A stretch of 62,903 nt of DNA, the filler included, from Reclinomonas americana ATCC 50394 (Eukaryota), in NCBI GenBank assembly GCA_048213135.1. It is 22 parts of 22 records of this genome, joined end to end, with 100 filler letters (N's around TTAATTAATTAA, not from the genome) between each part and the next. Parts side by side here need not be neighbours in the genome. Positions count along the whole stretch, not along the records: positions 1 to 7,213 come from AFZH01021777.1; 21 more parts are not named here. The stretch is one strand, 5' to 3'. Shown piece by piece: positions 343 to 62,903 of the stretch (positions are counted from its first letter, which is position 1; every line of letters starts with the position of its first letter). The position numbers and the translations under genes were made by a program. Under the pieces are notes generated by a model. It was not told where the DNA came from. It did not search any database and worked only from the letters and a program-made list of their open reading frames with translations.

Positions 343-3300
343 ATGTCGGTGAGTTTTATTGATTGCGTGGGGGACGCTTGTTGTTCGCTTGCTTCCCCTC
401 TCCTCTCTCTCTCATCGCTTGTCGCTCACTGTCCTTGTGTGCATCACAGTTCTCTGTGAATGTGAGTGCGGCGCATGATTCGTCGCTGTCGGTGGTGGTG
501 GCGGGCATGTCGGCCATGTCCACTCTCGCAGACTTGCTGCGCGAGGCCACACGCTTGCTGCGTGAGAAGAGTGGAGATGGGGCGATGGAGATTGTGGGGG
601 TGGAGAAACCAGCACCGCATGATGTCGCAGTCGTGGGTGGTGTTCCAATCGCTGGACTTGGCATCAACTCATCCACTCATGTCGTCGTCCGTCTGACACA
701 TTGGGGGGCCCCGGAGTCGAGTGGAGGGAGTGGAAGTGAGAGTGGAAGGTATGTGTTTGTGAATCATCCTCTATGGCAGCATGTAACTCACTCTCAAGTC
801 CTCGCGCAGCAACTCGGAGCGAGTGACTCGGTTTGTTCTGCTTGCCTTCGTCATCCTCCTCTCCCTTCTTGTTCCTCTCTCGGGGTGAGTCTGTGCTGAC
901 TGTGTTCGTGTGCACGCACAGTATGATCAACTTAAATCGCATCAACATGGCCTTTGAGGTGGTGGAGGAGGCCATCCGCCTGCGCTGTCAACGCGCACTG
1001 TCGCATTTCAGTCGTGATCATTCCGACTTTGATGTGCGGGCGTGGGTGCCGAGTTTCACGCCTGCTGGCATGGATGCGGCGGCAGTGAAGGCATGGCGAG
1101 GGCGATATGCGCCAGTCATTGGATGGCAGGTCAAGTTGTTCGAGGAGAAGCAGCCGGTGGTGTTGGCCTGGCGTGCTGCATTCGACGCCGAATCCTCGTC
1201 CGACCCTCCGTGTGACGGTTTCGATACGACAGCACTAACCTCCATCATGCTGAATGGTGGTTTTGTTGAGGATGACGGTCACGAGCTGCTGCTGATTGAC
1301 GATGCTGATGAGCGGAAGGCCGTGGAGGAGCTGAATGATGTGAGGAAGGGATTGGCTCACAAGGACCTCGTGCTGACGGATGCCACTGTACAGCATTACA
1401 CTGGCGACGGTGGTGTTTTGCTCTCCATCCTCTCTCGACTGCAATTGATGGTTGATGAGCATGCTCGATATTCTGCTCGTATCTGTGAGGCACGCCACGT
1501 CGAACACTTCATCAGCACATTCGAGGAGCGACTGCATCGACTGGCAATGCGCGAGCTCTCTTTCTACCAAGAGGACGAGAGTGTGCGCAAGGACATGCAG
1601 ATGTATGTGCCGCTGCTGTGCTCACGTGAGCGTGATGTCTCGTCGAGAGACAAGATGACGGATCTGTTGACGGAGGTGGATGTCTTCCTCTCCGACACCA
1701 ACACCACGCAGCGTGTGTTGGTGCTGTTAGGCAATAGTGGAGCCGGCAAGACTAGCACCGTGTCGGTGCTGGCCGAGCGAGCATGGCGACAGTGGCAGAC
1801 GAGAGAGAGTCAACGAGTGCCGGTGCGTGTGCCTCTTGGTGCACTGCGCAATGCCGACGAGCGATTGTTGGAGGAGGCACTTGAACGACTGTCACCCGAG
1901 TTGGGATTCAGCGAGTCGGATGTACGACGGTTGAAGGAGGAGCCATTGCTGTTGTTGCTTGACGGGTACGACGAGTTGTATCGTGGCGTGAATGTGTTTG
2001 TCAAGAACCAACTCGATGTGTGTCGTGATATGAAGGTGATTATCACTTGTCGAGGTGATTACGCACTGACGGCACTGGGTGGTGTTGCGCAGTATCGACG
2101 GTACTTTGCACCAGTGGATGCACGCGGACAGTTGCGCATGCAACAGCTGATGGTGCGACACATTTCACCGTTCAACATGGAACAGATTGAGGAGTACTTT
2201 GAGCGCCTGGTGCAAGTGGTCGGTGATGACGATGACGATGACGGTGAGGTGCGATGGTCGACTGCCGAGGAGTACATTTGTGCACTGATGAGTGTACATG
2301 GACTGGATGCACTAGTGTCGAATCCGTTCCTGCTGGCAGTGGTGGCTCGTGTGTTGCCGCAGTTGGTGGCAAGTGGAGTGCAGCGACCGACTCGGCGTGA
2401 TGTGTTCGACCGATTCATCCGACAGTGGATTGAGAGGGAGCAGGAGAGGCAGACGCGTCTCGGTGCGGAGCGTGTGCCGAGTGTGGAGATGTGTTTGGCG
2501 TTCTGTGAGGGACTGGCACGGTTGATGCACGAGAGGAATGTGGTGCGTGTGTCTGTGACGGAGAGACGGTTAGGTGATGAGGAGGGTGACTTTGGTGGTG
2601 CGCCACTCGCCTTGCGACGAGTGGAGGAGGGAGTGTTTGACAAGTTCCTCGGTTACAAGAACCAGCATGTGCGTGTGTGCTGTCCGATTGTACGACGGTA
2701 TGGAACAAGTCAGTGGGGATTCGTGCATCTGTCTTTGCTGGAGCACTGTGTGACACGGCATGTGTGTGCATGGGAGGCGTGGGATGAGGAGAGAAGATTG
2801 ACGATGTGCACCGGCATGTGCTGGCAGTGCGATTGCTGAATGATCGACCGTCGTTGGTGGAGCAGATGGCCGAGGTGGTGCGACGATCTCCTGCGCTGCA
2901 AGCGAGACTGTGGGAGGTAATTGAGATATCACGGGAGGTGGATGAGGAGCGAGTGGCGAAGACAGCCGCGAATGCAGCGACGGTGTTGTGTGTGGCGCAA
3001 GTGTCGTTCAGTGGGCGCGATTTGTCGGGTGTGCGAGTGAGAGGTGCGGATTTGAGGGATGCGGCGATGCAGAGGACAGTGTGGAGGGGGGCGGACTTGC
3101 GAGGGGTGAATGTGTGCATGGCGTTCGCGAGGGAGGCGGATTTCAGAGGGGCGGATGTAACGGGGGTGAAGTGGCCGAGGAAGCCGATGGAGGGGCACAC
3201 GGAGGAGGTTAAGTCTGTTGCCGTGACACCCGATGGTCAGTACATTCTGAGTGGCAGTAAGGACAGGACTGTACGGGTGTGGTCGGTGGCAAGTGGCGAG

Positions 3301-6120
3301 GAAGTGCGCCGACTGTATGGCCACACGGGTCCGGTGCATGCAGTAGCAGTGACACCCGATGGTCAGTACATTGTAAGTGGTAGTGAAGACAAGACTGTAC
3401 GGGTGTGGTCGGTGGCAAGTGGCGAGGAGGTGCGCCGACTGGAAGGCCACACGTGGGAGGTGTGGGCAGTGGCGGTGACACCCGATGGCCAGCACATTGT
3501 AAGTGGCAGTCACGACAAGACTGTGCGATTGTGGTTGCTGGCAAGTGGCGAGGAGGTGCGCCGACTGGAAGGCCACACGAGTGAGGTGCATGCAGTGGCA
3601 GTGACACCCGATGGTCAACACATTGCAAGCGCCAGTGGGGACAAGACTGTACGGTTGTGGTCGGTGGCAAGTGGCGAGGAGGTGCGCCGACTGGAAGGCC
3701 ACACGAGTGTGGTGTATGCAGTGGCAGTGACACCCGACGGCCAGCACATTGTGAGCGGAGGTGGAGACCAGACTGTGCGAGTTTGGTCCCTGGCAAGTGG
3801 CAAGGAGGTGCGCCGACTGGAAGGCCACACGAGTGGGGTGCATGCAGTGGCAGTGACACCCGATGGCCAGCACATTGTGAGTGGCAGTGATGACAAGACT
3901 GTTCGAGTGTGGTCGGTGGCATGTGGCGAGGAGGTGCGCCGACTGGAAAGCCACACGAGGGAGGTGTGGGCAGTGGCAGTGACACCCGATGGCCAGCACA
4001 TTGTGAGTGGCAGTAAGGACAATACAGTACGGGTGTGGTCGGTGGCAAGTGGCGAGGAGGTGCGCCGACTGGAAGGCCACACGAGTGAGGTGCATGCAGT
4101 GGCAGTGACACCCGATGGCCAGCTTATCGTGAGTGGCAGTTTGGACGGGACAGTGCGGGTGTGGTCGCTTTCAAGTGAGTACGACGTGTGCCGACTAGAA
4201 GGCCACATGGATGCGGTGCTTGCAGTGACAGTGACACCCGATGGCCAGCATATTGTGAGTGGCAGTATGGATAATACTGTGCGATTATGGTCGGTGGCAA
4301 GTGGCGAGGAGGTGCGCCGACTGGAAGGCCACATGAGTGAGGTGTGGGCAGTGGCAGTGACACCCGATGGCAAGCTTATCGTGAGCGCCAGTGGGGACAA
4401 GACTGTACGGTTGTGGTCGGTGGCAAGTGGCGAGGAGGTGCGCCGACTGGAAGGCCACACGGGTGTGGTGTATGCAGTGGCAGTGACACCCGACGGCCAG
4501 CACATTGTGAGTGGCAGTGATGACAAGACTGTACGGGTGTGGTCCCTGGCAAGTGGCAAGGAGGTGCGCCGACTGGAAGGCCACACGAGTGGGGTGCATG
4601 CAGTGGCAGTGACACCCGATGGCCAGCACATTGTGAGTGGCAGTGATGACAAGACTGTTCGAGTTTGGTCGGTGACAAGTGGCGAGGAGGTACGTCGACT
4701 GGAAAGACACACGAGTGGGGTGTGTGCAGTGGCAGTGACACCCGATGGCCAGTATATTATGAGTGGCAGTTGGGATGAGACTATACGGGTGTGGTCGGTG
4801 GCAGGTAGCGAGGTGGTGCGCCGACTGGAAGGCCACACGAGTGGGGTGTGTGCAGTGGCGGTGACACCCGATGGCCATTACATTGTAAGTGGCAGTGGGG
4901 ACGAGACTGTACGGATGTGGTCGGTGGCGACTGGCGAGGAGGTACGTCGACTGGAAGGACACACGAGTGGGGTGCTTGCAGTGGCAGTGACACCCGTTGG
5001 TCAGCACATTGTGAGTGGCAGTTGGGACGAGACTGTACGGATGTGGTCGGTGGGAAGTGGCGAGGAGGTGCGCCGACTGGAAGGCCACACGAGTGAGGTG
5101 CATGCAGTGGCAGTGACACCCGATGGCCAGCATATTGTGAGCGCCAGTGGGGACAGGACTGTGCGATTGTGGTCGTTGGCAAGTGGCGAGGAGGTGCGCC
5201 GACTGGAAGGCCACACGAGTGTGGTGTATGCAGTGGCGGTGACACCCGATGGCCAGCACATTGTGAGTGGCAGTCATGACGGGACTGTACGGGTGTGGTC
5301 GGTGGCAAGTGGCGAGGAGGTACGCCGACTGGAAGGCCACACGCGTGAGGTGTGGGCAGTGGCAGTGACACCCGATGGCCAGCACATTGTAAGTGGCAGT
5401 CACGACAAGACTGTGCGATTGTGGTTGCTGGCAAGTGGCAAGAAGGTCCGCCAGTTGGAGGGCCACACGTGGGAGGTGTGGGCAGTGGCGGTGACACCCG
5501 ATGGCCAGCACATTGTGAGTGGCAGTAAGGACAAGACTGTGCGATTGTGGTTGCTGGCAAGTGGCGAGGAGGTGCGCCGACTGGAAGGCCACACGTGGGA
5601 GGTGTGGGCAGTGGCGGTGACACCCGATGGCCAGCACATTGTGAGTGGCAGTATGGACAATACAGTACGGGTGTGGTCAGTGGCAAGTGGCGAGGAGGTA
5701 CATCGGCTGGAAGGCCACACCAGTTGGGTTCTTGCAGTGGCAGTGACACCGGATGGTCGCTACATTGTGAGTGCATGTCGGGACAAGATTTTACGGGTGT
5801 GGTCGGTGGCAAGTGGCAAGAAGGTCCGCCAGTTGGAGGGCCACACGAGTAACGTTAATGCAGTGGCAGTGACATCCGATGGCCAGCACATTGTGAGTGG
5901 CAGTTCTGACAAGACTGTACGGGTGTGGTCGGTGGCAAGTGGCTCTGAGGCGCACCGACTAGAAGGCCACACTAGTGGGGTGCTTGCAGTTGCAATGACA
6001 CCCAATTACAAAGACATTTTCCCGCCTTGGAGTATTTCGCTTCTTGTGCGCCTTCGTGAGGAAATGCTCAAGCGTGTAATCGGCTCCTTCCTGCCTGATT
6101 TCGCCGATGTAATTCGGTGA
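343..6120 (+). CDS. NLR-like STAND protein, copy 1 (Ubl - HEPN-like - NACHT - pentapeptide - 22 WD40), interrupted by a frameshift near 2802; split gene or pseudogene
   Basis: Predicted exons 343-348, 450-748, 810-830, 922-2839 (stop), with the WD40 frame continuing 2806-6120. Walker A GNSGAGKT, Walker B LLLLDGYDE, sensor-1 IITCR, NPFLL, winged-helix FVHLSLLEH, pentapeptide ADLRD/ADLRG/ADFRG, then GH...W repeats. Alignment with copy 2 shows a 7-nt deletion at the frame switch. Confidence 0.9.
450..700 (+). other. N-terminal ubiquitin-like (beta-grasp) domain exon of NLR copy 1
   Basis: MS|FSVNVS...STLADLLREA...LGINSSTHVVVRL resembles the ubiquitin pattern (MQIFVK...TLSDYNIQKESTLHLVLRL). Copy 2 reads KLKTLGINSSIHLVVRL. 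Confidence 0.6.
923..1500 (+). other. HEPN-like (DZIP3/Swt1-type) putative RNase effector domain of NLR copy 1
   Basis: Helical region with FDTTALTSIML followed by R-x4-H (RKGLAH, 1343-1360). The paralog has the canonical RNELVH (11122-11139). Confidence 0.65.
3187..6003 (+). repeat. Tandem array of 22 full plus 1 partial 126-bp (42-aa) WD40 repeats
   Basis: Unit EGHTxxVxAVAVTPDGQHIVSGSxDxTVRVWSVASGEEVRRL, counted directly. DNA is nearly identical between units. Confidence 0.97.
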
Positions 6121-10057: not shown

Positions 10058-13000
10058 ATGTTGGTGAGTTGTATTGATTGAGTGGGGGACGCTTGTTGTT
10101 CGCACGCTTCTCCGTGTCTTCTCTCTCACTCGTCGCTTGTCACTCACTGCCTTTGTGTGTGCGACAGTTCTCTGTGAATGTGAGTGCGGCGCATGATTCG
10201 TCGCTGTCGGTGGAAGTGGCGGGCATGTCGGCCATGTCCACTCTGGCGGACTTGCTGCGCGAGGCCACTCGCTTGCTGCGCGAGAAGAGTGGAGATGCGG
10301 GAATGGAGATTGTGGGAGTGGAGAAGCCCGTGCCGTATGACTTGGAGGATGCGACTGTGACGAAGCTGAAAACACTCGGCATCAACTCATCAATACACCT
10401 TGTTGTCCGTCTGACACTTGGCGTGGCGCTACAGCCGAGTGGAGGGAGTGGAAGGCATGTGTGCTGGATGCTTGCGAATCATGTCACTGCGCCAAATATG
10501 CAGCTCACTCTCGCTCCTTCGCACAGCAACTCGGAGCGAATGACTCGGTGTGTTTCTTGCCTTCGTCATCTTCCTCTCTTCTCTTCTTTGTTCTTCCACT
10601 CGGATTGAGTCTGTGCTGATTGTGTTTGTTTGTGCACGCACAGCATGATCAACTTCAATCGCATCAACATGGCCTTTGAGGTGGTGGAGGAGGCCGTGCG
10701 TCTCCGTTGTCAACGCGCGCTGGCTCAGTTCAGTCGCGATCATCCCGACTTTGATGTGCGGGCGTGGGCTTCGGATTTGTGGTTTCCGCGTATCATGCAT
10801 TGTGACTTGTGGAAGTGGGTGCCCTGCTTTGTGTTGGCTGGCATGCACATGCATGAGGCGGCAGTGAAGTCTTGGCGTGGGCGACACGCTCCACTTCATC
10901 CTGGGCGAGTCATGTTGTTTGAGGAGAAGCAGACGGCGGCGTTGGCCTGGCGTGCTGCGTTCGACGCCGATCCATCATCCGACCCTCCGTGTGACGGATT
11001 CGACACAACGGCACTCACGTCCATCATGCTTTTTGGTGGCCTGGTACTCGAGGACGGTCGCAAGGTGTTGTTAACGGATGATGCGGACGAACGAAAGGCG
11101 GTGGAGCTGTTGCGAGTGGTCAGAAATGAGTTGGTCCACGGATCATCGGCATGGAACGAGGCCGGTGTGCAATTGTATCTCGGTGACGGCGGTGTGTTCC
11201 TCTCCTTCCTCGGCAAGCTGCGCCTTCCTGTCGATGCAGTCGCCAGATTTGCGACGCGGATTCGCGATGCGCGCCATCTCGACTTTAACGTCAGCACATT
11301 TGAGGAGCGACTCTATCGACTGGCGGCGCGTGAGCTCTCATTCTACCAGCACGACGAGAGTTTGCGCAAAGGCATGCAGATGTATGTTCCACTGCTGTGC
11401 TCACGCGATCGTGACGTCTCATCGAGGGAGAAGATGATGGATCTGTTGACGGAGGTGGATGTTTTCCTCGCCGACGCCAACACCACGCAGCGTATGCTGG
11501 TGCTCTTTGGCAACAGTGGGGCCGGCAAGACCACCACCATGTCGATGCTGGCCGAGCGAGCGTGGCGACAGTGGCAGACAAGAGAAAGCAGAAGGGTGCC
11601 TGTTCGTGTGCCCCTTGGTGCTCTGCGCAATGCCGATGAGCGACTGTTGGAGGAGACACTGGAGCGACTGTCTCCCGAGTTGGGATTCAGTGAGTCGGAT
11701 GTGCGACGGTTGAAGGAGGAACCACTGCTGTTATTGCTTGACGGGTACGATGAGTTGTACCGTGGTGTGAATCTGTTTGTCAAGAACCAGCTGGACGTGT
11801 GTCGCGATGTGAAGGTGATTATCACTTGTCGTGGCGATTACGCACTGACGGCACTGGGTGGTGTGCCGCAGTATCGACGGTTGTTTGCACCGATAGATGC
11901 ACGAGGACAGTTGTGCATGCAGCAGTTGATGGAGAGATATATTGCGCCGTTCAGCAAGGAGCAGATTGAGGAGTACTTCGAGCGACTGGTGCAGGTGGGT
12001 GGTGATGATGATGATGACGGTGGAGTGCGATGGTCGACTGCCGAAGAGTACATTCGTGCACTGCAAAGTGTGCATGGACTGGATGCACTGGTGTCGAATC
12101 CTTTCCTGCTAGCAGTGGTGGCTCGTGTGTTGCCGGAGTTGGTGGCGAGTGGTGTACAACGACCGACTCGGTGCGATGTGTTTGACCGATTCATTCGACA
12201 GTGGATTGTGAGGGAACAGGAGAGGCAGACGCGTCTCGGTGCGGAGCGTGTACCGCGGGAGGAGACCTGTTTGGCGTTCTGTGAGGGACTGGCACGGTTG
12301 ATGCATGAGAGGAATGTGGTGCGTGTGTCTGTGTCGGAAAGTCGGTCGTGGGATGATGGTGGAGAGGATGATGACGACTTTGGCGGTGCACCTCTCGCCT
12401 TGCGACGGGTGGAAGAGGGACCGTTTGACAAGTTCCTGGGCGAGAAGAACCAGCATGTGCGAGTGTGCTGTCCGATTGTGCGACGGTATGGGACGACGCA
12501 GTGGGGATTCGTGCATCTGTCGTTGTTGGAACACTGTGTGGCACGCCATGCGTTTGCATGGGAGACGTGGGATGAGGAGAGGAGATTGACAATGCACGAT
12601 GTGCAACAGCATGTACTGGCAGTACGACTGCTGAATGATCGACCATCGTTGGTGGAGCAGATGGCCGAGGTGGTGCGACGATCTCCTGCGTTGCAACCGA
12701 GACTGTGGGAGGTGATTGAGATGTCACGCGAGGTGGATGAGGAGCGAGTGGTGACGGCAGCAGCGAATGCTGCGACAGTGCTGTGTGTGGCACAAGTGTC
12801 GTTCAGTGGCCGTGATCTGTCGAGTGTGCGAGTGAGGGGTGCGGATTTGAGGGATGCGGTGATGCACAGAACGGTGTGGAGAGGAGCGGATATGCGAGGG
12901 GTGAATGTGTGCTTGGCGTACGCGAGGGAGGCGGATTTCAGAGGGGCGGATGTGACGGATGTGAAGTGGCCGAGGGAGCCGATGGTGGGACACGCGGGTT

Positions 13001-13788
13001 GGGTGCGTGCAGTGGCAGTGACACCCGATGGTCAGCACATTGTGAGTGGCAGTGATGACAAGACTGTACGGATGTGGTCTGTGGCAAGTGGCGAGGAGGC
13101 GCGCCAATTGGAGGGCCACACGTTGTCGGTGTCTGCAGTTGCAGTGACACCCAATGGTCAACACATTGTGAGTGGCAGTCGGGATAAGACTGTACGAGNN
13201 NNNNNNNNNNNNNNNNNNNNNNNNNNNNNNNNNNNNNNNNNNTTAATTAATTAANNNNNNNNNNNNNNNNNNNNNNNNNNNNNNNNNNNNNNNNNNNNTC
13301 AGCACATTGTGAGTGGCAGTGGTGACAACACTTTACGAGTGTGGTCGGTGGCAAGTGGCGAGGAGGTTCGCCGCCTGGCAGGCCACACACATGCGGTGTA
13401 TGCAGTTGCAGTGACACCCGATGGCCAGCACATTGTGAGTGGCAGTTCTGATGAGACTGTACGGGTGTGGTCGATGGTAAGTGGCGAGGAGGTGCGCCGA
13501 TTGGAAGGCCACACGAATGCGGTGCGTGCAGTGACAGTGACGCCCGATGGCCATCACATTGTGAGTGGCGGTGATGACAAGACTGTGCGGATGTGGTCTG
13601 TGGCAAGTGACGCGGAGGTGCGTCGACTGGAAGGCCACACGAATAGGGTGAATGCAGTGGCACTGACATCCGATGGCCAGCACATTTTTCAACGTGAGAA
13701 GGCTGTACTTCTTGTGCGCCGTCGTGAAGGACTGCTCGAGCGCATTCTCGGCTCTTTCCTTCCTGATTTCACCGATGTTATTCTGTGA
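10058..13788 (+). CDS. NLR-like STAND protein, copy 2 (Ubl - HEPN - NACHT - pentapeptide - WD40), apparently intact; the WD40 array is broken by an assembly gap
   Basis: Predicted exons 10058-10063, 10168-10454 (GC donor), 10527-10547, 10644-13198, gap, 13299-13788. Motifs RNELVH, GNSGAGKT, LLLLDGYDE, NPFLL, FVHLSLLEH, pentapeptide and WD40 units are in one open frame. C-terminal tail GSFLPDF is shared with copy 1. Confidence 0.9.
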
Positions 13789-58127: not shown

Positions 58128-58229
58128 NNNNNNNNNNNNNNNNNNNNNNNNNNNNNNNNNNNNNNNNNNNNTTAATTAATTAANNNNNNNNNNNNNNNNN
58201 NNNNNNNNNNNNNNNNNNNNNNNNNNNGT

Positions 58230-61200
58230 ACATACTACTTCCGTGCTGTTGGCACCTCTGTTGATGCACCATCTGGGGTATCCGACGCACCCAAATCTTT
58301 CTCAACTGTCCTCACCTTGGCAGCCACAAGTGTCGCGCCAGTGTCCGCTGTTCTGAATGCCTCACTCGACCCTGGCGCACTGGGTGCTGCGAGTGCTTCA
58401 TTTTTGTATTCCACATCGCCAACACTGGCCACCGGCGTGGTCACGGTGACGTCAGCTGCAGTGTCGCCCGCTGGCCCATACTCGACGCCCGGTGCTGTCG
58501 CGGTTAGTGCGACTGTCAGTGGGCTATCAGCCAGCACCACATACTTCTTCCAGGTGACGGTGTCCATTGATTCGAACTCCCCATCAACTTCGCAAGTAGT
58601 CTTGAATGGTGGGACTCGTTCATTCTCCACTAGTCCGCTTCCGGATCTGACCACCACTGCTGCCACCGCGGTGACCGTCAGCAGCGCCATTCTCAACGCC
58701 TCCGTGGGAACCAATGGCGGCAGCACAGTAACGGTTTCGTTTCAGTACTCGACGGACTCATCGTTTGTCACGGGTGTGGTGACTATCTCCAATATCTCGC
58801 CTTCCCCGACTGTGACTTCAACAGCGCCGGTCAGTGTTAGTGCGACGGTTTCTGGCCTTGCTCCCCTTCTTACCTTCTTCTATCGTGTGGTTGGCACGAC
58901 AATGGACTTGATGGCACCGCAATTGGGTACAGCTCTGACGTTTTCCACTGTGGAAACGTCAGCAGTGACCGACCTGACTCCGCAGAGTGTGGTGTTCCGC
59001 GGCGCACTGAATCCTGCTGGCCAGAGCTGCACGGCTGTGTTCCAGTACAGCACGTCGTCGACTCTGGCCACAGGCGTCACCACTGTGAGCGTTCTGACGC
59101 CCTCGTCACCTTACACTGGCGCTACTCGCATAGACGTCGCGGCCACTGTCACTGGTCTCACTCCGCTGACGACATACTACTTCCGCCTTGTGGTGACAGT
59201 GACGGCCACAATGCAGGAGCTGCAGGGTGCAACACTATTCTTCATCGCCCCCGGCAACCCCACTGTCACGACGGTGGCCCCCTCCTCTGTGTTCCAGACG
59301 ACAATCACCCTCAACGGCACTGTTGATCCGAAGAACAACAGCGCAGTCACCGTGACGTTTGAGTACAGTCTCGTTGCGGATATCGATCTGTCAAGTGGAC
59401 TGACGGTGGTGACGACAACCACGCCGGCTGGGCCGTTCTCAGGCAGCGGATCGCAGACAGTGTCGGCGGTCATTGTCGGCCTCCAACCAAACACGAGCTA
59501 TTCGTATCGTGTGGTGGCTGTGGTAGTTGGCAATTCGCCGCAACGTGGTTCAATTCTCACAGCAACAACCCCCGGGCTGCCAATTGTGACGGTCGGAAGT
59601 GCCACGGTTATAACAGCTGGCTCGGCGACACTGTCAGCAACGGTGAATCCTTCCAATGGTCGCGCCGATACAGTGTCATTCATTGTTGCTACCGACGCCG
59701 CGTTCACCGCCAATGTGATCACCGTGACGAACACCACTCCAGTTGCGCCCATCACCGGATCCACTCCTGTGACTGTCACTGCCGTTGTGAGCGGACTCAG
59801 CCCAGTCACCATGTACTATTTCAAGTTCGCAAGCACTGTTCAGGGTGTATCGCCAGCGCAGGAGTCCATGTCGGCAACATTTGCAACACCCAACGCGCCG
59901 GTTGTTGTGAGCCTGGCGGCTGTGGTGACAGGCCCGACATCGGCGACGCTGGGAGGCACGGTGAACGCGCAAGGTGGATCGACGGTCACAGTTTCGATCG
60001 AGTTCTCCACATCCATGACGTTTGCGAGTGGAGTGCTGACTGCATCTGCAGTGTCGCCAGTCACCGTCAGCGGCACCAGCACCGTGAATGTGACTGGTAG
60101 TGCAGCCGGTCTCACGATAAGCACGCAGTACTACTTCCGCGTTGTGGCCACCACGAGTGGTGGAGCTTTTGTGCGGTACGGCAACGTGGTTCCATTTACA
60201 CCATTCAACCTTCCTGTTGCCACCAGCTCATCCGCCACTGTGACGAGCGCCGTGTCGGCGACGCTGGGAGGCAGTGTGAATGCGCAAGGTGGACCGACAG
60301 TCACTGTGTCGATTGAATACTCCCTATCCATGTCCTTTGCGAGTGCTGTGTTCACTGCGTCGGATGTGTCGCCAGCCAGTGTCAGCGGCAGCATGGACAC
60401 TGCAGTGACGGGCAGTGCAACGGGCCTGACACCCAACACGCAGTACTACTTCCGCATCGTGGCCACCACGAGTGGTGGAGCGCCTGTGCAGTACAGCAGT
60501 GCGCTGCCATTCACCACGTTCAAATTGGCCACTGCCACCAGCTCGCCCGCGACTGTGACAAGTGCCGTGTCAGCGACGCTGGGAGGCAGTGTGAATGCGC
60601 AAGGTGGACCGACAGTCACTGTGTCGATCGAGTACTCCACATCCATGACGTTTGCGAGTGGTGTGCTGAGTACTTCGACAGTGTCACCTGTCACCGTCAG
60701 CGGTACAACAACTGTGACTGTGACGGGTAGTGCAGCAGGTTTGTCACCCAACACGCAGTACTACTTCCGCATTGTGGCCACCACGAGTGGTGGAGCGCCT
60801 GTGCAGTACAGTGGTGCGCTGCCATTCACCACATTCAAGTTGGCCACTGCCACCACCTCGCCTGCTACCGTGACAAGTGCCGTGTCGGCGACGCTGGGAG
60901 GCAGTGTAAATGCGCAAGGTGGACCGACAGTCACTGTGTCGATTGAGTACTCCACATCCATGACGTTTGCGAGTGGCGTACTGACTGCATCTGCAGTGTC
61001 ACCGACCACCGTGAGCGGCAGTGTGGACACGGCAGTGACGGGTAGTGCAACAGGTCTGTCACCCAACACGCAGTACTACTTCCGCATTGTGGCCACGACA
61101 AGCGGTGGAGCGCCTGTGCAGTACAGCGGTGCGTTGCCATTTACCACGTTCAAGTTGGCCACTGCCACCAGCTCATCCGCCACTGTGACGAGCGCCGTGT

Positions 61201-62903
61201 CAGCGACGCTGAGTGGCAGTGTGAACGCACAAGGTGGACCGACTGTCACTGTGTCGATTGAGTACTCCACATCCATGACGTTTGCGAGTGGCGTATTGAC
61301 TGCATCTGCAGTGTCACCGACCACCGTCAGCGGCAGCATGGACACGCCAGTGACGGGTAGTGCGACGGGCCTGACACCCAACACGCAGTACTACTTCCGC
61401 ATTGTGGCCACCACGAGTGGTGGAGCGCCTGCGCAGTACAGTGGTGCGCTGTCGTTCACCTCGTTCAAGTTGGCCACTGCCACCAGCTCGCCCGCCACTG
61501 TGACGAGCGCCGTGTCGGCGACGCTGGGAGGCAGTGTGAATGCGCAAGGTGGACCGACTGTCACCGTGTCGATTGAGTACTCCACATCCATGACTTTCGC
61601 GAGTGGCGTACTGAGTGCGTCGGCAGTGTCGCCTGCAACCGTCAGCGGCAGTATGGACACGCCAGTGACAGGAAGTGCGACAGGCCTGACACCCAACACG
61701 CAGTACTTCTTCCGCATTGTGGCCACCACGAGTGGCGGAGCGCCTTTGCAGTACAGCAATCCGCTGCCATTCACCGCGTTCAAATTTGCCACTGCCACCA
61801 GCTCGCCCGCGACTGTGACGAGCGCCGTGTCGGCGACGTTGAGTGGCAGTGTGAATGCGCAAGGTGGACCGACTGTCACCGTGTCGATTGAGTACTCCAC
61901 ATCCATGACGTTTGCGAGTGGCGTACTGACTGCGCCGGCTGTGTCACCGACCACCGTCAGCGGTACTACAACTGTGACTGTGACGGGCAGTGCAGCAGGC
62001 CTGTCACCCAACACGCAGTACTACTTCCGCATCGTGGCCACGACAAGCGGTGGAGCGCCTGCGCAGTACAGTGGTGCGCTGTCGTTCACCTCGTTCAAGT
62101 TGGCCACTGCCACCAGCTCATCCGCCACTGTGACGAGCGCCGTGTCGGCGACGCTGGGAGGCAGTGTGAATGCGCAAGGTGGACCGACAGTCACTGTGTC
62201 GATTGAGTACTCCACATCCATGACGTTTGCGAGTGGCGTACTAAATGCATCTGCAGTGTCACCGACCACCGTGAGCGGCAGCATGGACACGCCAGTGACA
62301 GGAAGCGCGACGGGCCTGACACCCAACACGCTGTACTACTTCCGCATTGTGGCCACGACAAGCGGTGGAGCGCCTGCGCAGTACAGTGGTGCGCTGTCGT
62401 TCACCTCGTTCAAATTGGCCACTGCCACCAGCTCGCCCGCGACTGTGACAAGTGCCGTGTCGGCGACGCTGGGAGGCAGTGTGAATGCGCAAGGTGGACC
62501 GACTGTCACTGTGTCGATTGAGTACTCCACATCCATGACGTTTGCGAGTGGCGTACTAAATGCATCTGCAGTGTCACCGACCACCGTCAGCGGCAGCATG
62601 GACACGCCAGTGACAGGTAGTGCAGCAGGATTGACACCCAACACGCAGTACTACTTCCGCATCGTGGCCACCACAAGCGGTGGAGCGCCTGCGCAGTACA
62701 GTGGTGCGCTGTCGTTCACCACATTCAAGTTTGCCACTGCCACCAGCTCGCCCGCCACAGTGATGAGTGCCGTGTCGGCGACGCTGAGTGGCAGCGTGAA
62801 CGCGCAAGGTGGACCGACAGTCACTGTGTCGATTGAGTACTCAACGTCCATGACGTTTGCGAGTGGCGTACTGACTGCATCTGCAGTGTCACCGACCACG
62901 GCC
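58230..62903 (+). CDS. Very large intronless S/T-rich protein with ~15 tandem 105-aa fibronectin type III-like domains; open at both ends
   Basis: One + strand frame of 1558 codons with no stop seen, absent from the ORF track because it runs off the window end. Unit SATLGGSVNAQGG...SIEYSTS...GLTPNTQYYFRIVATTSGG, with an exact 315-bp period from ~59890 on. Confidence 0.9.

What the first reader, a model, noticed from the sequence alone, without database searches (positions are those of the whole stretch)
3187..6003. WD40 array homogenised except at a few hypervariable, ligand-facing positions
Seen: the 22 units are almost identical, but variation concentrates at GHT-x-x-V-x (EE.K, GP.H, WE.W, SE.H, SV.Y, RE.W, DA.L, SG.C, SW.L, SN.N) and S-x-D-x (KDR, EDK, HDK, GDQ, LDG, MDN, WDE). 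Known: equivalent top-face positions are hypervariable in the Podospora HET-E/HET-D NWD repeats, which evolve concertedly under positive selection. Inference: a diversifiable recognition surface.
Basis: partly seen in the sequence, partly recalled or inferred. Interest (0 to 1): 0.75.

Follow-up and report, generated by a model that had tools for sequence, protein, structure and literature searches.

The report
Diversifying WD40 sensor of protist NLR
This is the sensor end of an immune-receptor-like gene in a microbial eukaryote: 22 look-alike propeller blades whose partner-binding residues are driven to differ by selection, drawn from a repeat pool shared by dozens of genes, although this particular copy appears broken by a frameshift.

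Summary
The 22 units (126 bp) are 84% identical, not almost identical; 65 of 140 non-consensus residues fall at 5 of 42 codons (6, 7, 9, 25, 27). At codons 7/9/25/27, fixed beforehand from Podospora, dN/dS is 3.2 against 0.36 elsewhere. This repeats in 194 paralog units (2.3) and exceeds all 45 neutral simulations. The sites match the WD40 top-face hotspots. The array ends a gene built as probable HEPN RNase, NACHT, pentapeptide, WD40, from a large family. This copy carries a 7-bp deletion between NACHT and array, so it is probably a recent pseudogene (no reads were available to check). Beyond the finding: the same repeat type fills arrays of genes with other heads, another NACHT, and NACHT-less stand-alone propellers. 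Units show no positional orthology, linkage fades within about 15 nt, and new units overwrite old arrays from the 5' side. The mechanism is known from fungal NWD receptors; the scale and the cross-architecture pool in a non-fungal microbial eukaryote are the new part. The scan noted this family before, on other DNA of this genome and in two other genomes.

The parts
343..348 (+). Predicted exon 1 (two codons)
   Evidence: GT-AG splice model gives an open frame into exon 4; an ATG-codon-donor motif matched upstream in 16 of 45 family loci, this one included. No RNA evidence.
450..748 (+). Predicted exon 2: small N-terminal domain without a family match (called ubiquitin-like in earlier scan notes; not tested here)
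   Evidence: No Pfam hit for 489-896; clear counterpart in the paralog at 10078-10608; splice model
810..830 (+). Predicted 21-nt microexon
   Evidence: Matched in 26 of 45 family loci by a strict pattern; keeps the frame
923..1570 (+). Helical domain, probable Swt1-like HEPN RNase; R-x4-H motif at 1343-1360
   Evidence: R and H kept in 44 of 45 family members while the residues between them vary; HEPN_Swt1 below cut-off in 13 of 23 members, best E 0.002; Atlas first hit Swt1-like HEPN at 0.85, a lead only; mostly helical model, pLDDT 85; fold searches inconclusive
1712..2206 (+). NACHT NTPase; Walker A at 1730-1753, Walker B intact
   Evidence: Pfam PF05729 37.4 bits, cut-off 26.7; motifs listed
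2801..2839 (+). 7-bp deletion between short GATG repeats, shifting the frame; premature stop at 2837-2839
   Evidence: Stretch is 58 nt here and 65 nt in all 15 other loci matched by the pattern (the window's paralog is listed twice there)
3007..3168 (+). Pentapeptide-repeat linker
   Evidence: Translation; Pfam PF00805 above cut-off in the window's paralog
3187..5958 (+). 22 homogenised 42-aa WD40 units; hypervariable codons 6, 7, 9, 25, 27
   Evidence: four strands per unit in the model; best solved match is the highly repetitive propeller 2ymu
5959..6120 (+). Partial 23rd unit and the family's conserved C-terminal tail; stop at 6118-6120
   Evidence: helical, low confidence in the model
10078..13788 (+). 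Second family member, NACHT and junction intact, array cut by an assembly gap

Best explanation
The array is the sensor domain of an NLR-like STAND protein (probable HEPN RNase, NACHT switch, pentapeptide linker, WD40 propellers) from a large lineage-specific family. Shown: the propeller framework is under purifying selection and codons 7, 9, 25 (also 6, weakly 27) are under diversifying selection; these map to the top face; the same repeat type is shared across genes and across architectures. Inferred: unequal crossing-over changes unit number inside a gene, and short conversion tracts move patches between units and genes, so that the 6-7-9 loop and the 25-27 turn are combined freely; selection keeps new combinations because the face binds changing non-self molecules (virus, intracellular bacterium or incompatible cell); binding frees the NACHT to oligomerise and brings HEPN heads together to cut RNA. 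This copy grew to 22 units and then, recently, lost the frame between NACHT and array, so it is probably a young pseudogene whose repeats may still exchange sequence with the pool.
For: dN/dS 3.2 (LR 40) at the four pre-set codons, 2.9 and 2.5 on separate half-unit trees, 0.36 elsewhere; 2.3 (LR 171) in 194 paralog units without this gene. Neutral simulations with whole-unit or 40- and 15-nt conversion: highest dN/dS 1.8 and LR 3.5 in 45 runs; 0 of 180 reached the observed diversity at those codons, 1 of 180 the observed ratio to silent sites. Tree-free test: first/second positions exceed four-fold sites, p 5e-4 here and 2e-4 in paralogs. Old, position-orthologous units: 2.5, LR 89. Stand-alone propellers 3.2, other-NACHT genes 2.3. 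452 of 470 units carry distinct five-residue combinations; framework distance 13-16% within and between all four gene classes; gene-level Fst 0.057. No slot orthology for new units (0.123 v 0.126) but present for old ones (0.287 v 0.356); mosaic genes are new in slots 1-5 and old behind. Linkage at background beyond about 15 nt, none between the two loops. 44 of 59 family loci are open from Walker A to tail (42 scored plus 2 read by eye). The NACHT branch of this copy has dN/dS 0.30, not different from the family's 0.235.
Against: No ligand, expression or cell-death data. No unit is identical between genes (0 of 470; best 119 of 126 nt), unlike Podospora, so whole-unit exchange between genes is not recent. 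Half of the loci were found by an exact 32-mer and units were filtered at 100 of 126 nt to the consensus, which favours a shared pool. Most framework variants are transitions near 10% and could be recurrent mutation. Silent diversity inside codons 6, 9 and 25 is raised in paralogs (0.51-0.62 v 0.28). The HEPN call is below Pfam's cut-off and no fold search singled out a HEPN. The codon tests are my own implementation, not a standard package.
Confidence: 0.72

Rival explanations
1. Relaxed constraint only: exposed loop residues drift freely while conversion and purifying selection hold the framework, so nothing is being recognised.
For: Surface loops tolerate change; recombination can inflate tree-based dN/dS; codon 27 alone is near 1 in paralogs.
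Against: Amino-acid-changing positions are more diverse than silent sites (0.54 v 0.22); neutral simulations with conversion never gave the observed dN/dS (0 of 45); other exposed positions stay constrained; old units without homogenisation show the same signal.
Confidence: 0.04
2. Targeted hypermutation: a site-directed process (retroelement-like or repair-based) mutates these codons, and the excess of change reflects mutation rate rather than selection.
For: Silent third-position diversity inside codons 6, 9, 25 is 0.51-0.62 in paralogs against a mean of 0.28; change at these codons is saturated even in pairs with few silent differences.
Against: Codon 7 third positions are ordinary (0.30) while its first two are 0.64-0.66; neighbouring codons 8, 10, 28 are not raised; all four bases are exchanged; the raised values fit one residue reached from different parent codons. 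I did not search for a template or a reverse transcriptase.
Confidence: 0.07
3. One past burst rather than continuing exchange: a young master unit spread once through many genes, and units have since diverged independently under diversifying selection.
For: All new units lie about equally far from the consensus; no identical units between genes; longest exact matches between arrays 45-66 nt; the NACHT tree is star-like too.
Against: Linked minor variants at unit positions 99-105 occur in 19-34 of 58 genes and in all four classes; patches of new units sit inside old arrays; silent divergence of units (0.28-0.30) is below that of the NACHT regions (0.36); recent copying inside this array (125-nt exact repeat).
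Confidence: 0.25
4. The 22-unit count or the frameshift is an assembly artefact and the real gene is intact, for example with 14-16 units.
For: Draft assembly of 16,441 contigs; a 125-nt exact repeat six units apart (3784 and 4540); short reads are known to mis-assemble such arrays (PMC12222747, passages); 12 formal GT-AG pairs could splice out the break.
Against: No two units are identical and six-unit blocks are not allele-like; an intact paralog has 21 units and another 20; the deletion lies in unique sequence between 4-nt repeats, as slippage would leave it; each formal intron removes conserved coding sequence; no second allele of the region is in the assembly (best other hit 90%).
Confidence: 0.15

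Closest known systems
Podospora anserina NWD/HNWD receptors (HET-D, HET-E, HET-R)
   Same: NACHT plus 126-bp WD40 units with high internal conservation; diversifying selection at codons 7, 9, 25, 27 on the top face; exchange within and between genes; pseudogenes with intact arrays; arrays mixing conserved and diverged blades (PMC1805685, PMC12222747, passages).
   Different: No HET domain; probable HEPN head and a pentapeptide linker; at least 58 genes sampled against 10; repeats hardly differ between genes (Fst 0.057) whereas Podospora paralogs are mostly well separated (PMC12222747); pool shared with NACHT-less genes; no identical units between genes; host is not shown to be a fungus.
NACHT-pentapeptide-WD40 proteins of Mortierellaceae and unnamed metagenome proteins
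   Same: Closest NACHT relatives found (26-31% identity); the same NACHT, pentapeptide, WD40 order.
   Different: Other N-terminal domains (helical, kinase); their repeats look diverged by eye; I did not test them for selection.
HEPN-NACHT proteins of animals and HEPN-STAND proteins of bacteria
   Same: N-terminal HEPN with R-x4-6-H joined to a STAND NTPase (PMC3710099, passages).
   Different: Here the weak profile match is to the Swt1-like family and the sensor is a homogenised WD40 array; RNase activity is untested.
Highly repetitive WD40 proteins of bacteria, fungi and protists (Hu 2017; solved example 2ymu)
   Same: High internal identity; about 2% of protist WD40 proteins exceed 0.4 internal identity (PMC5587647, passages); best sequence and fold match.
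   Different: In the passages read, that survey treats them as young duplications; it never mentions NACHT.

Membership tests
NWD-type NLR with high internal conservation (Podospora type) | NACHT domain with Walker A and B | tested here: met
   Pfam above cut-off; motifs intact
NWD-type NLR with high internal conservation (Podospora type) | Internally conserved WD40 repeats | tested here: met
   83.6% DNA identity; 784 of 924 residues match the consensus, 0.85, above the 0.7 threshold of PMC13449251; mean pairwise protein identity 76.6% is below the roughly 85% quoted for Podospora
NWD-type NLR with high internal conservation (Podospora type) | Diversifying selection at codons 7, 9, 25, 27 | tested here: met
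   dN/dS 3.2, LR 40; paralogs 2.3, LR 171; codon 27 weak on its own
NWD-type NLR with high internal conservation (Podospora type) | Selected sites on the top face of the propeller | tested here: met
   Secondary structure of the model read with PMC1805685 and the 2-and-16 spacing of the R1-2, R1, D-1 hotspots (PMC4383882); solvent exposure not computed, no coordinates returned
NWD-type NLR with high internal conservation (Podospora type) | Repeat exchange between genes | tested here: inconclusive
   For: no slot orthology, low Fst, shared linked variants, mosaics. Against: 0 identical units between genes
NWD-type NLR with high internal conservation (Podospora type) | Repeat-number polymorphism between isolates | not testable with these tools
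   One assembly only; among paralogs the count runs from about 6 to 22 with a mode of 14
NWD-type NLR with high internal conservation (Podospora type) | One open frame joining NACHT and sensor | tested here: not met
   7-bp deletion in this copy; met in 44 of 59 family loci
HNWD proper (HET-NACHT-WD40 incompatibility genes) | N-terminal HET domain | tested here: not met
   No HET hit in Pfam scans; the head is helical with R-x4-H
HNWD proper (HET-NACHT-WD40 incompatibility genes) | Allele-specific cell death on recognition | not testable with these tools
   Needs experiments
HEPN RNase | Conserved R-x4-6-H motif in a helical domain | tested here: met
   44 of 45; model mostly helical
HEPN RNase | Profile or fold match to a HEPN family | tested here: inconclusive
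   HEPN_Swt1 13.3 bits against cut-off 27.5; 13 of 23 members at E up to 1; Atlas 0.85; HEPN-bearing chains (AbiF Z 6.1, rmsd 4.6, 148 aligned; Csm6 Z 6.1; Cas13 Z 6.4) rank among unrelated helical bundles

The most novel reading that the evidence does not exclude
The organism keeps one genome-wide library of interchangeable WD40 blades. Very short conversion tracts move binding loops among hundreds of units in NLR sensors with different effectors and in free seven-bladed propellers, and broken copies such as this one serve as donors. If the exchange runs fast enough to diversify clones, it would be an antibody-like combinatorial repertoire in a microbial eukaryote, with soluble binders and switch receptors drawing on the same library.
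Probability: 0.15. Interest if true: 0.85.

Novelty: new variant of a known kind. Interest (0 to 1): 0.55.

Why it matters
Repeat shuffling plus selection on four top-face codons has been worked out in filamentous fungi. Finding the same codons selected in a NACHT family only 26-31% identical to its nearest fungal relatives suggests that this is a general, repeatedly reached way to build a recognition repertoire, also in lineages where NLR immunity is hardly described. The sharing of one repeat type between receptors and NACHT-less propellers offers a test of how intergenic exchange works, and the 452 natural binding-face variants on one stable frame are a ready library for binder design. The single window copy matters less: it is probably dead.

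Tried and rejected
No sequencing run was listed for 1500-3300, so the frameshift, the unit count and expression could not be checked. The first neutral simulation was mis-calibrated (saturated) and is not used; one search replaces it. Trees built without the variable codons gave dN/dS of about 6; I quote the lower values, since that design inflates homoplasy. Per-site tests with free silent rates in this gene alone were weak (codons 7 and 9 only). Lineage: an HSP90 exon found no relative above 78% identity and did not place the organism; 'jakobid' comes from earlier scan notes and is not confirmed here. Foldseek on the head domain gave nothing at E up to 0.001, and the wide search gave only generic helical bundles. 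The 22-unit model has pTM 0.40, so how the blades split into propellers is not resolved. Eight literature searches listed no paper on selection in homogenised WD40 NLR repeats of a protist or on a pool shared with stand-alone propellers; the library lacks most subscription papers, and I did not open the supplementary figures S14-S15 of PMC13449251, which may cover protist groups. No complex prediction was run: no candidate partner is known.

Full report
Observation. The window holds 22 gap-free 126-bp WD40 units at 3187-5958 and a partial 23rd to 6003. The units are less alike than stated: 83.6% DNA and 76.6% protein identity on average, 5-37 differences per pair. The concentration of change is real: codons 6, 7, 9, 25 and 27 have 1.9-3.1 bits of entropy against at most 1.3 elsewhere and hold 65 of 140 non-consensus residues.

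Selection. To avoid picking sites after looking, I tested codons 7, 9, 25, 27, which Paoletti 2007 reports for Podospora (PMC1805685, passages). With a codon model of my own (MG94-type), dN/dS is 3.2 at these sites and 0.36 elsewhere, LR 40 against 1; on separate trees for the two halves of the unit it is 2.9 and 2.5. In 194 units of paralogs, without this gene, it is 2.3 (LR 171); there codons 7, 9, 25 are each about 3, codon 6 is 1.7 and codon 27 is 1.0. These 194 are what remained of 388 units after a filter for at least 100 of 126 nt to the consensus and removal of this gene. Neutral simulations with whole-unit copying or 40- and 15-nt conversion gave at most 1.8 (45 runs); 0 of 180 reached the observed diversity at those codons and 1 of 180 the observed ratio to silent sites. 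Without any tree, first and second positions of these codons are more diverse than four-fold silent sites (p 5e-4 here, 2e-4 in paralogs). Old units that keep their slot between 11 paralogs give 2.5 (LR 89), so the signal does not depend on homogenisation. Against a pure selection reading, silent diversity inside codons 6, 9 and 25 is raised in paralogs; codon 7 and the flanking codons are not.

Structure. The model (pLDDT 73.6, pTM 0.40) shows four strands per unit, with codons 6-7 just before strand a, 9 early in strand a and 25-27 in the b-c turn. Paoletti places those pairs on the top face; the WDSP hotspots R1-2, R1 and D-1 have the same 2-and-16 spacing as 7, 9, 25 (PMC4383882, passages). 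The best solved match by sequence and by fold is the highly repetitive propeller 2ymu. How 22 blades divide into propellers is not resolved.

The gene. Upstream lie three small predicted exons and a long one encoding a helical head, a NACHT domain above Pfam's cut-off and a pentapeptide linker. The head keeps R-x4-H in 44 of 45 family members and matches Swt1-like HEPN weakly (13 of 23 members, best E 0.002; Atlas 0.85); fold searches were inconclusive. HEPN joined to NACHT or other STAND NTPases is known from animals and bacteria (PMC3710099, passages). The HEPN lead came from earlier scan notes. The nearest NACHT relatives are Mortierellaceae and metagenome proteins of the same layout at 26-31% identity.

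This copy is broken. The NACHT frame stops at 2837-2839 and the array lies in another frame. The junction is 7 nt shorter than in all 15 other loci matched, with the loss between short GATG repeats. Its NACHT branch has dN/dS 0.30, not different from the family's 0.235 and far below 1, so the break is recent, a rare allele or an error. No reads were listed. Of 59 family loci, 44 are open from Walker A to tail (42 scored, 2 more by eye), 6 are broken, 6 are cut by gaps and 3 showed no Walker A.

The family and the pool. A NACHT-region search gave 170 candidates, of which 40 were scored, all 85% identical or more; an exact 32-mer of the unit occurs 142 times. I fetched 79 stretches. Unit counts run from about 6 to 22 with a mode of 14; one intact gene has 21 and one 7. 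The same unit type occurs in HEPN-type genes, in genes with other heads, in genes with a different intron-split NACHT that share only the pentapeptide and array (75-86% DNA identity), and in NACHT-less seven-bladed genes with their own tail. Among 470 units of 58 genes the framework differs by 13-16% within and between all four classes, gene-level Fst is 0.057, and 452 units carry distinct five-residue combinations. Stand-alone units give dN/dS 3.2 and other-NACHT units 2.3. New units show no slot orthology, old ones do, and many genes are new in slots 1-5 and old behind. Stand-alone genes also come in old and new forms, and one has an old-type tail with new units. Linkage among framework variants falls to background beyond about 15 nt, yet linked variants at positions 99-105 recur in 19-34 of 58 genes of all classes (431 of 470 units after dropping near-duplicates); the two variable loops are unlinked. 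Against continuing exchange: no unit is identical between genes, and the sampling by 32-mer and identity filter favours likeness.

Mechanism. Shown: selection pattern, site position, family, shared repeat type, frameshift in the assembly. Inferred from the NLR paradigm: the face binds changing non-self molecules, the NACHT oligomerises, and the HEPN heads cut RNA. Inferred from the patterns: unequal crossing-over (a 125-nt exact repeat six units apart) and short-tract conversion supply combinations. Direct evidence for such rearrangement exists for Podospora (PMC2873952, abstract only).

Comparison and novelty. It works like the Podospora NWD sensors and meets their sequence-level features, but it is not an HNWD gene (no HET domain) and this copy lacks the single frame. 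Homogenised NLR repeats are reported for fungi, animals, plants and prokaryotes (PMC4986451, passages; PMC13449251, passages and section 12), and highly repetitive WD40 proteins for protists (PMC5587647, passages). [quoted passage not shown] Eight searches listed no paper on this pattern in a protist or on a pool shared with stand-alone propellers; supplements were not opened. The organism is an intron-bearing eukaryote whose HSP90 has no relative above 78%; earlier notes call it a probable jakobid, which I could not confirm. The scan has noted this family and the stand-alone arrays on other DNA of this genome, and similar arrays in two other genomes. Verdict: a new variant of a known kind, interest 0.55.

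Noticed in passing
window 10078-13788: Second member of the family, with intact HEPN motif, NACHT and junction; its array is cut by an assembly gap.
   Followed up: partly
L047, L053, L064, L069, L070, L071, L074, L075, L078, L082 (new units); L056, L062 (old units): NACHT-less propeller genes of about seven blades, most with a conserved tail, in old-unit and new-unit forms; one gene in L056 has an old-type tail with new units.
   Followed up: partly
L045, L052, L061: A different, intron-split NACHT-like NTPase joined to the same pentapeptide and 14-unit cassette; shared sequence begins about 200 nt upstream of the array.
   Followed up: partly
L049, L050, L057, L059: Family members with another, intron-containing N-terminal part; DNA likeness to the HEPN type begins inside the NACHT region. 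The head was not identified.
   Followed up: no
L005, L013, L015, L019, L021, L026, L028, L033, L058, L063, L068, L076: Mosaic arrays: about five homogenised units next to the pentapeptide, then eight or nine old units that keep their slot; a polarity like that of het-e with its cryptic C-terminal blades.
   Followed up: yes
L060: Intact family member with 21 units, a candidate three-propeller sensor.
   Followed up: no
window 58176-62903 (- strand): Long open frame with a 315-bp tandem array (9.4 copies, 87% matches) at 59940-62899.
   Followed up: no
G000: 132 actin-family matches on many contigs, suggesting an expanded actin family.
   Followed up: no
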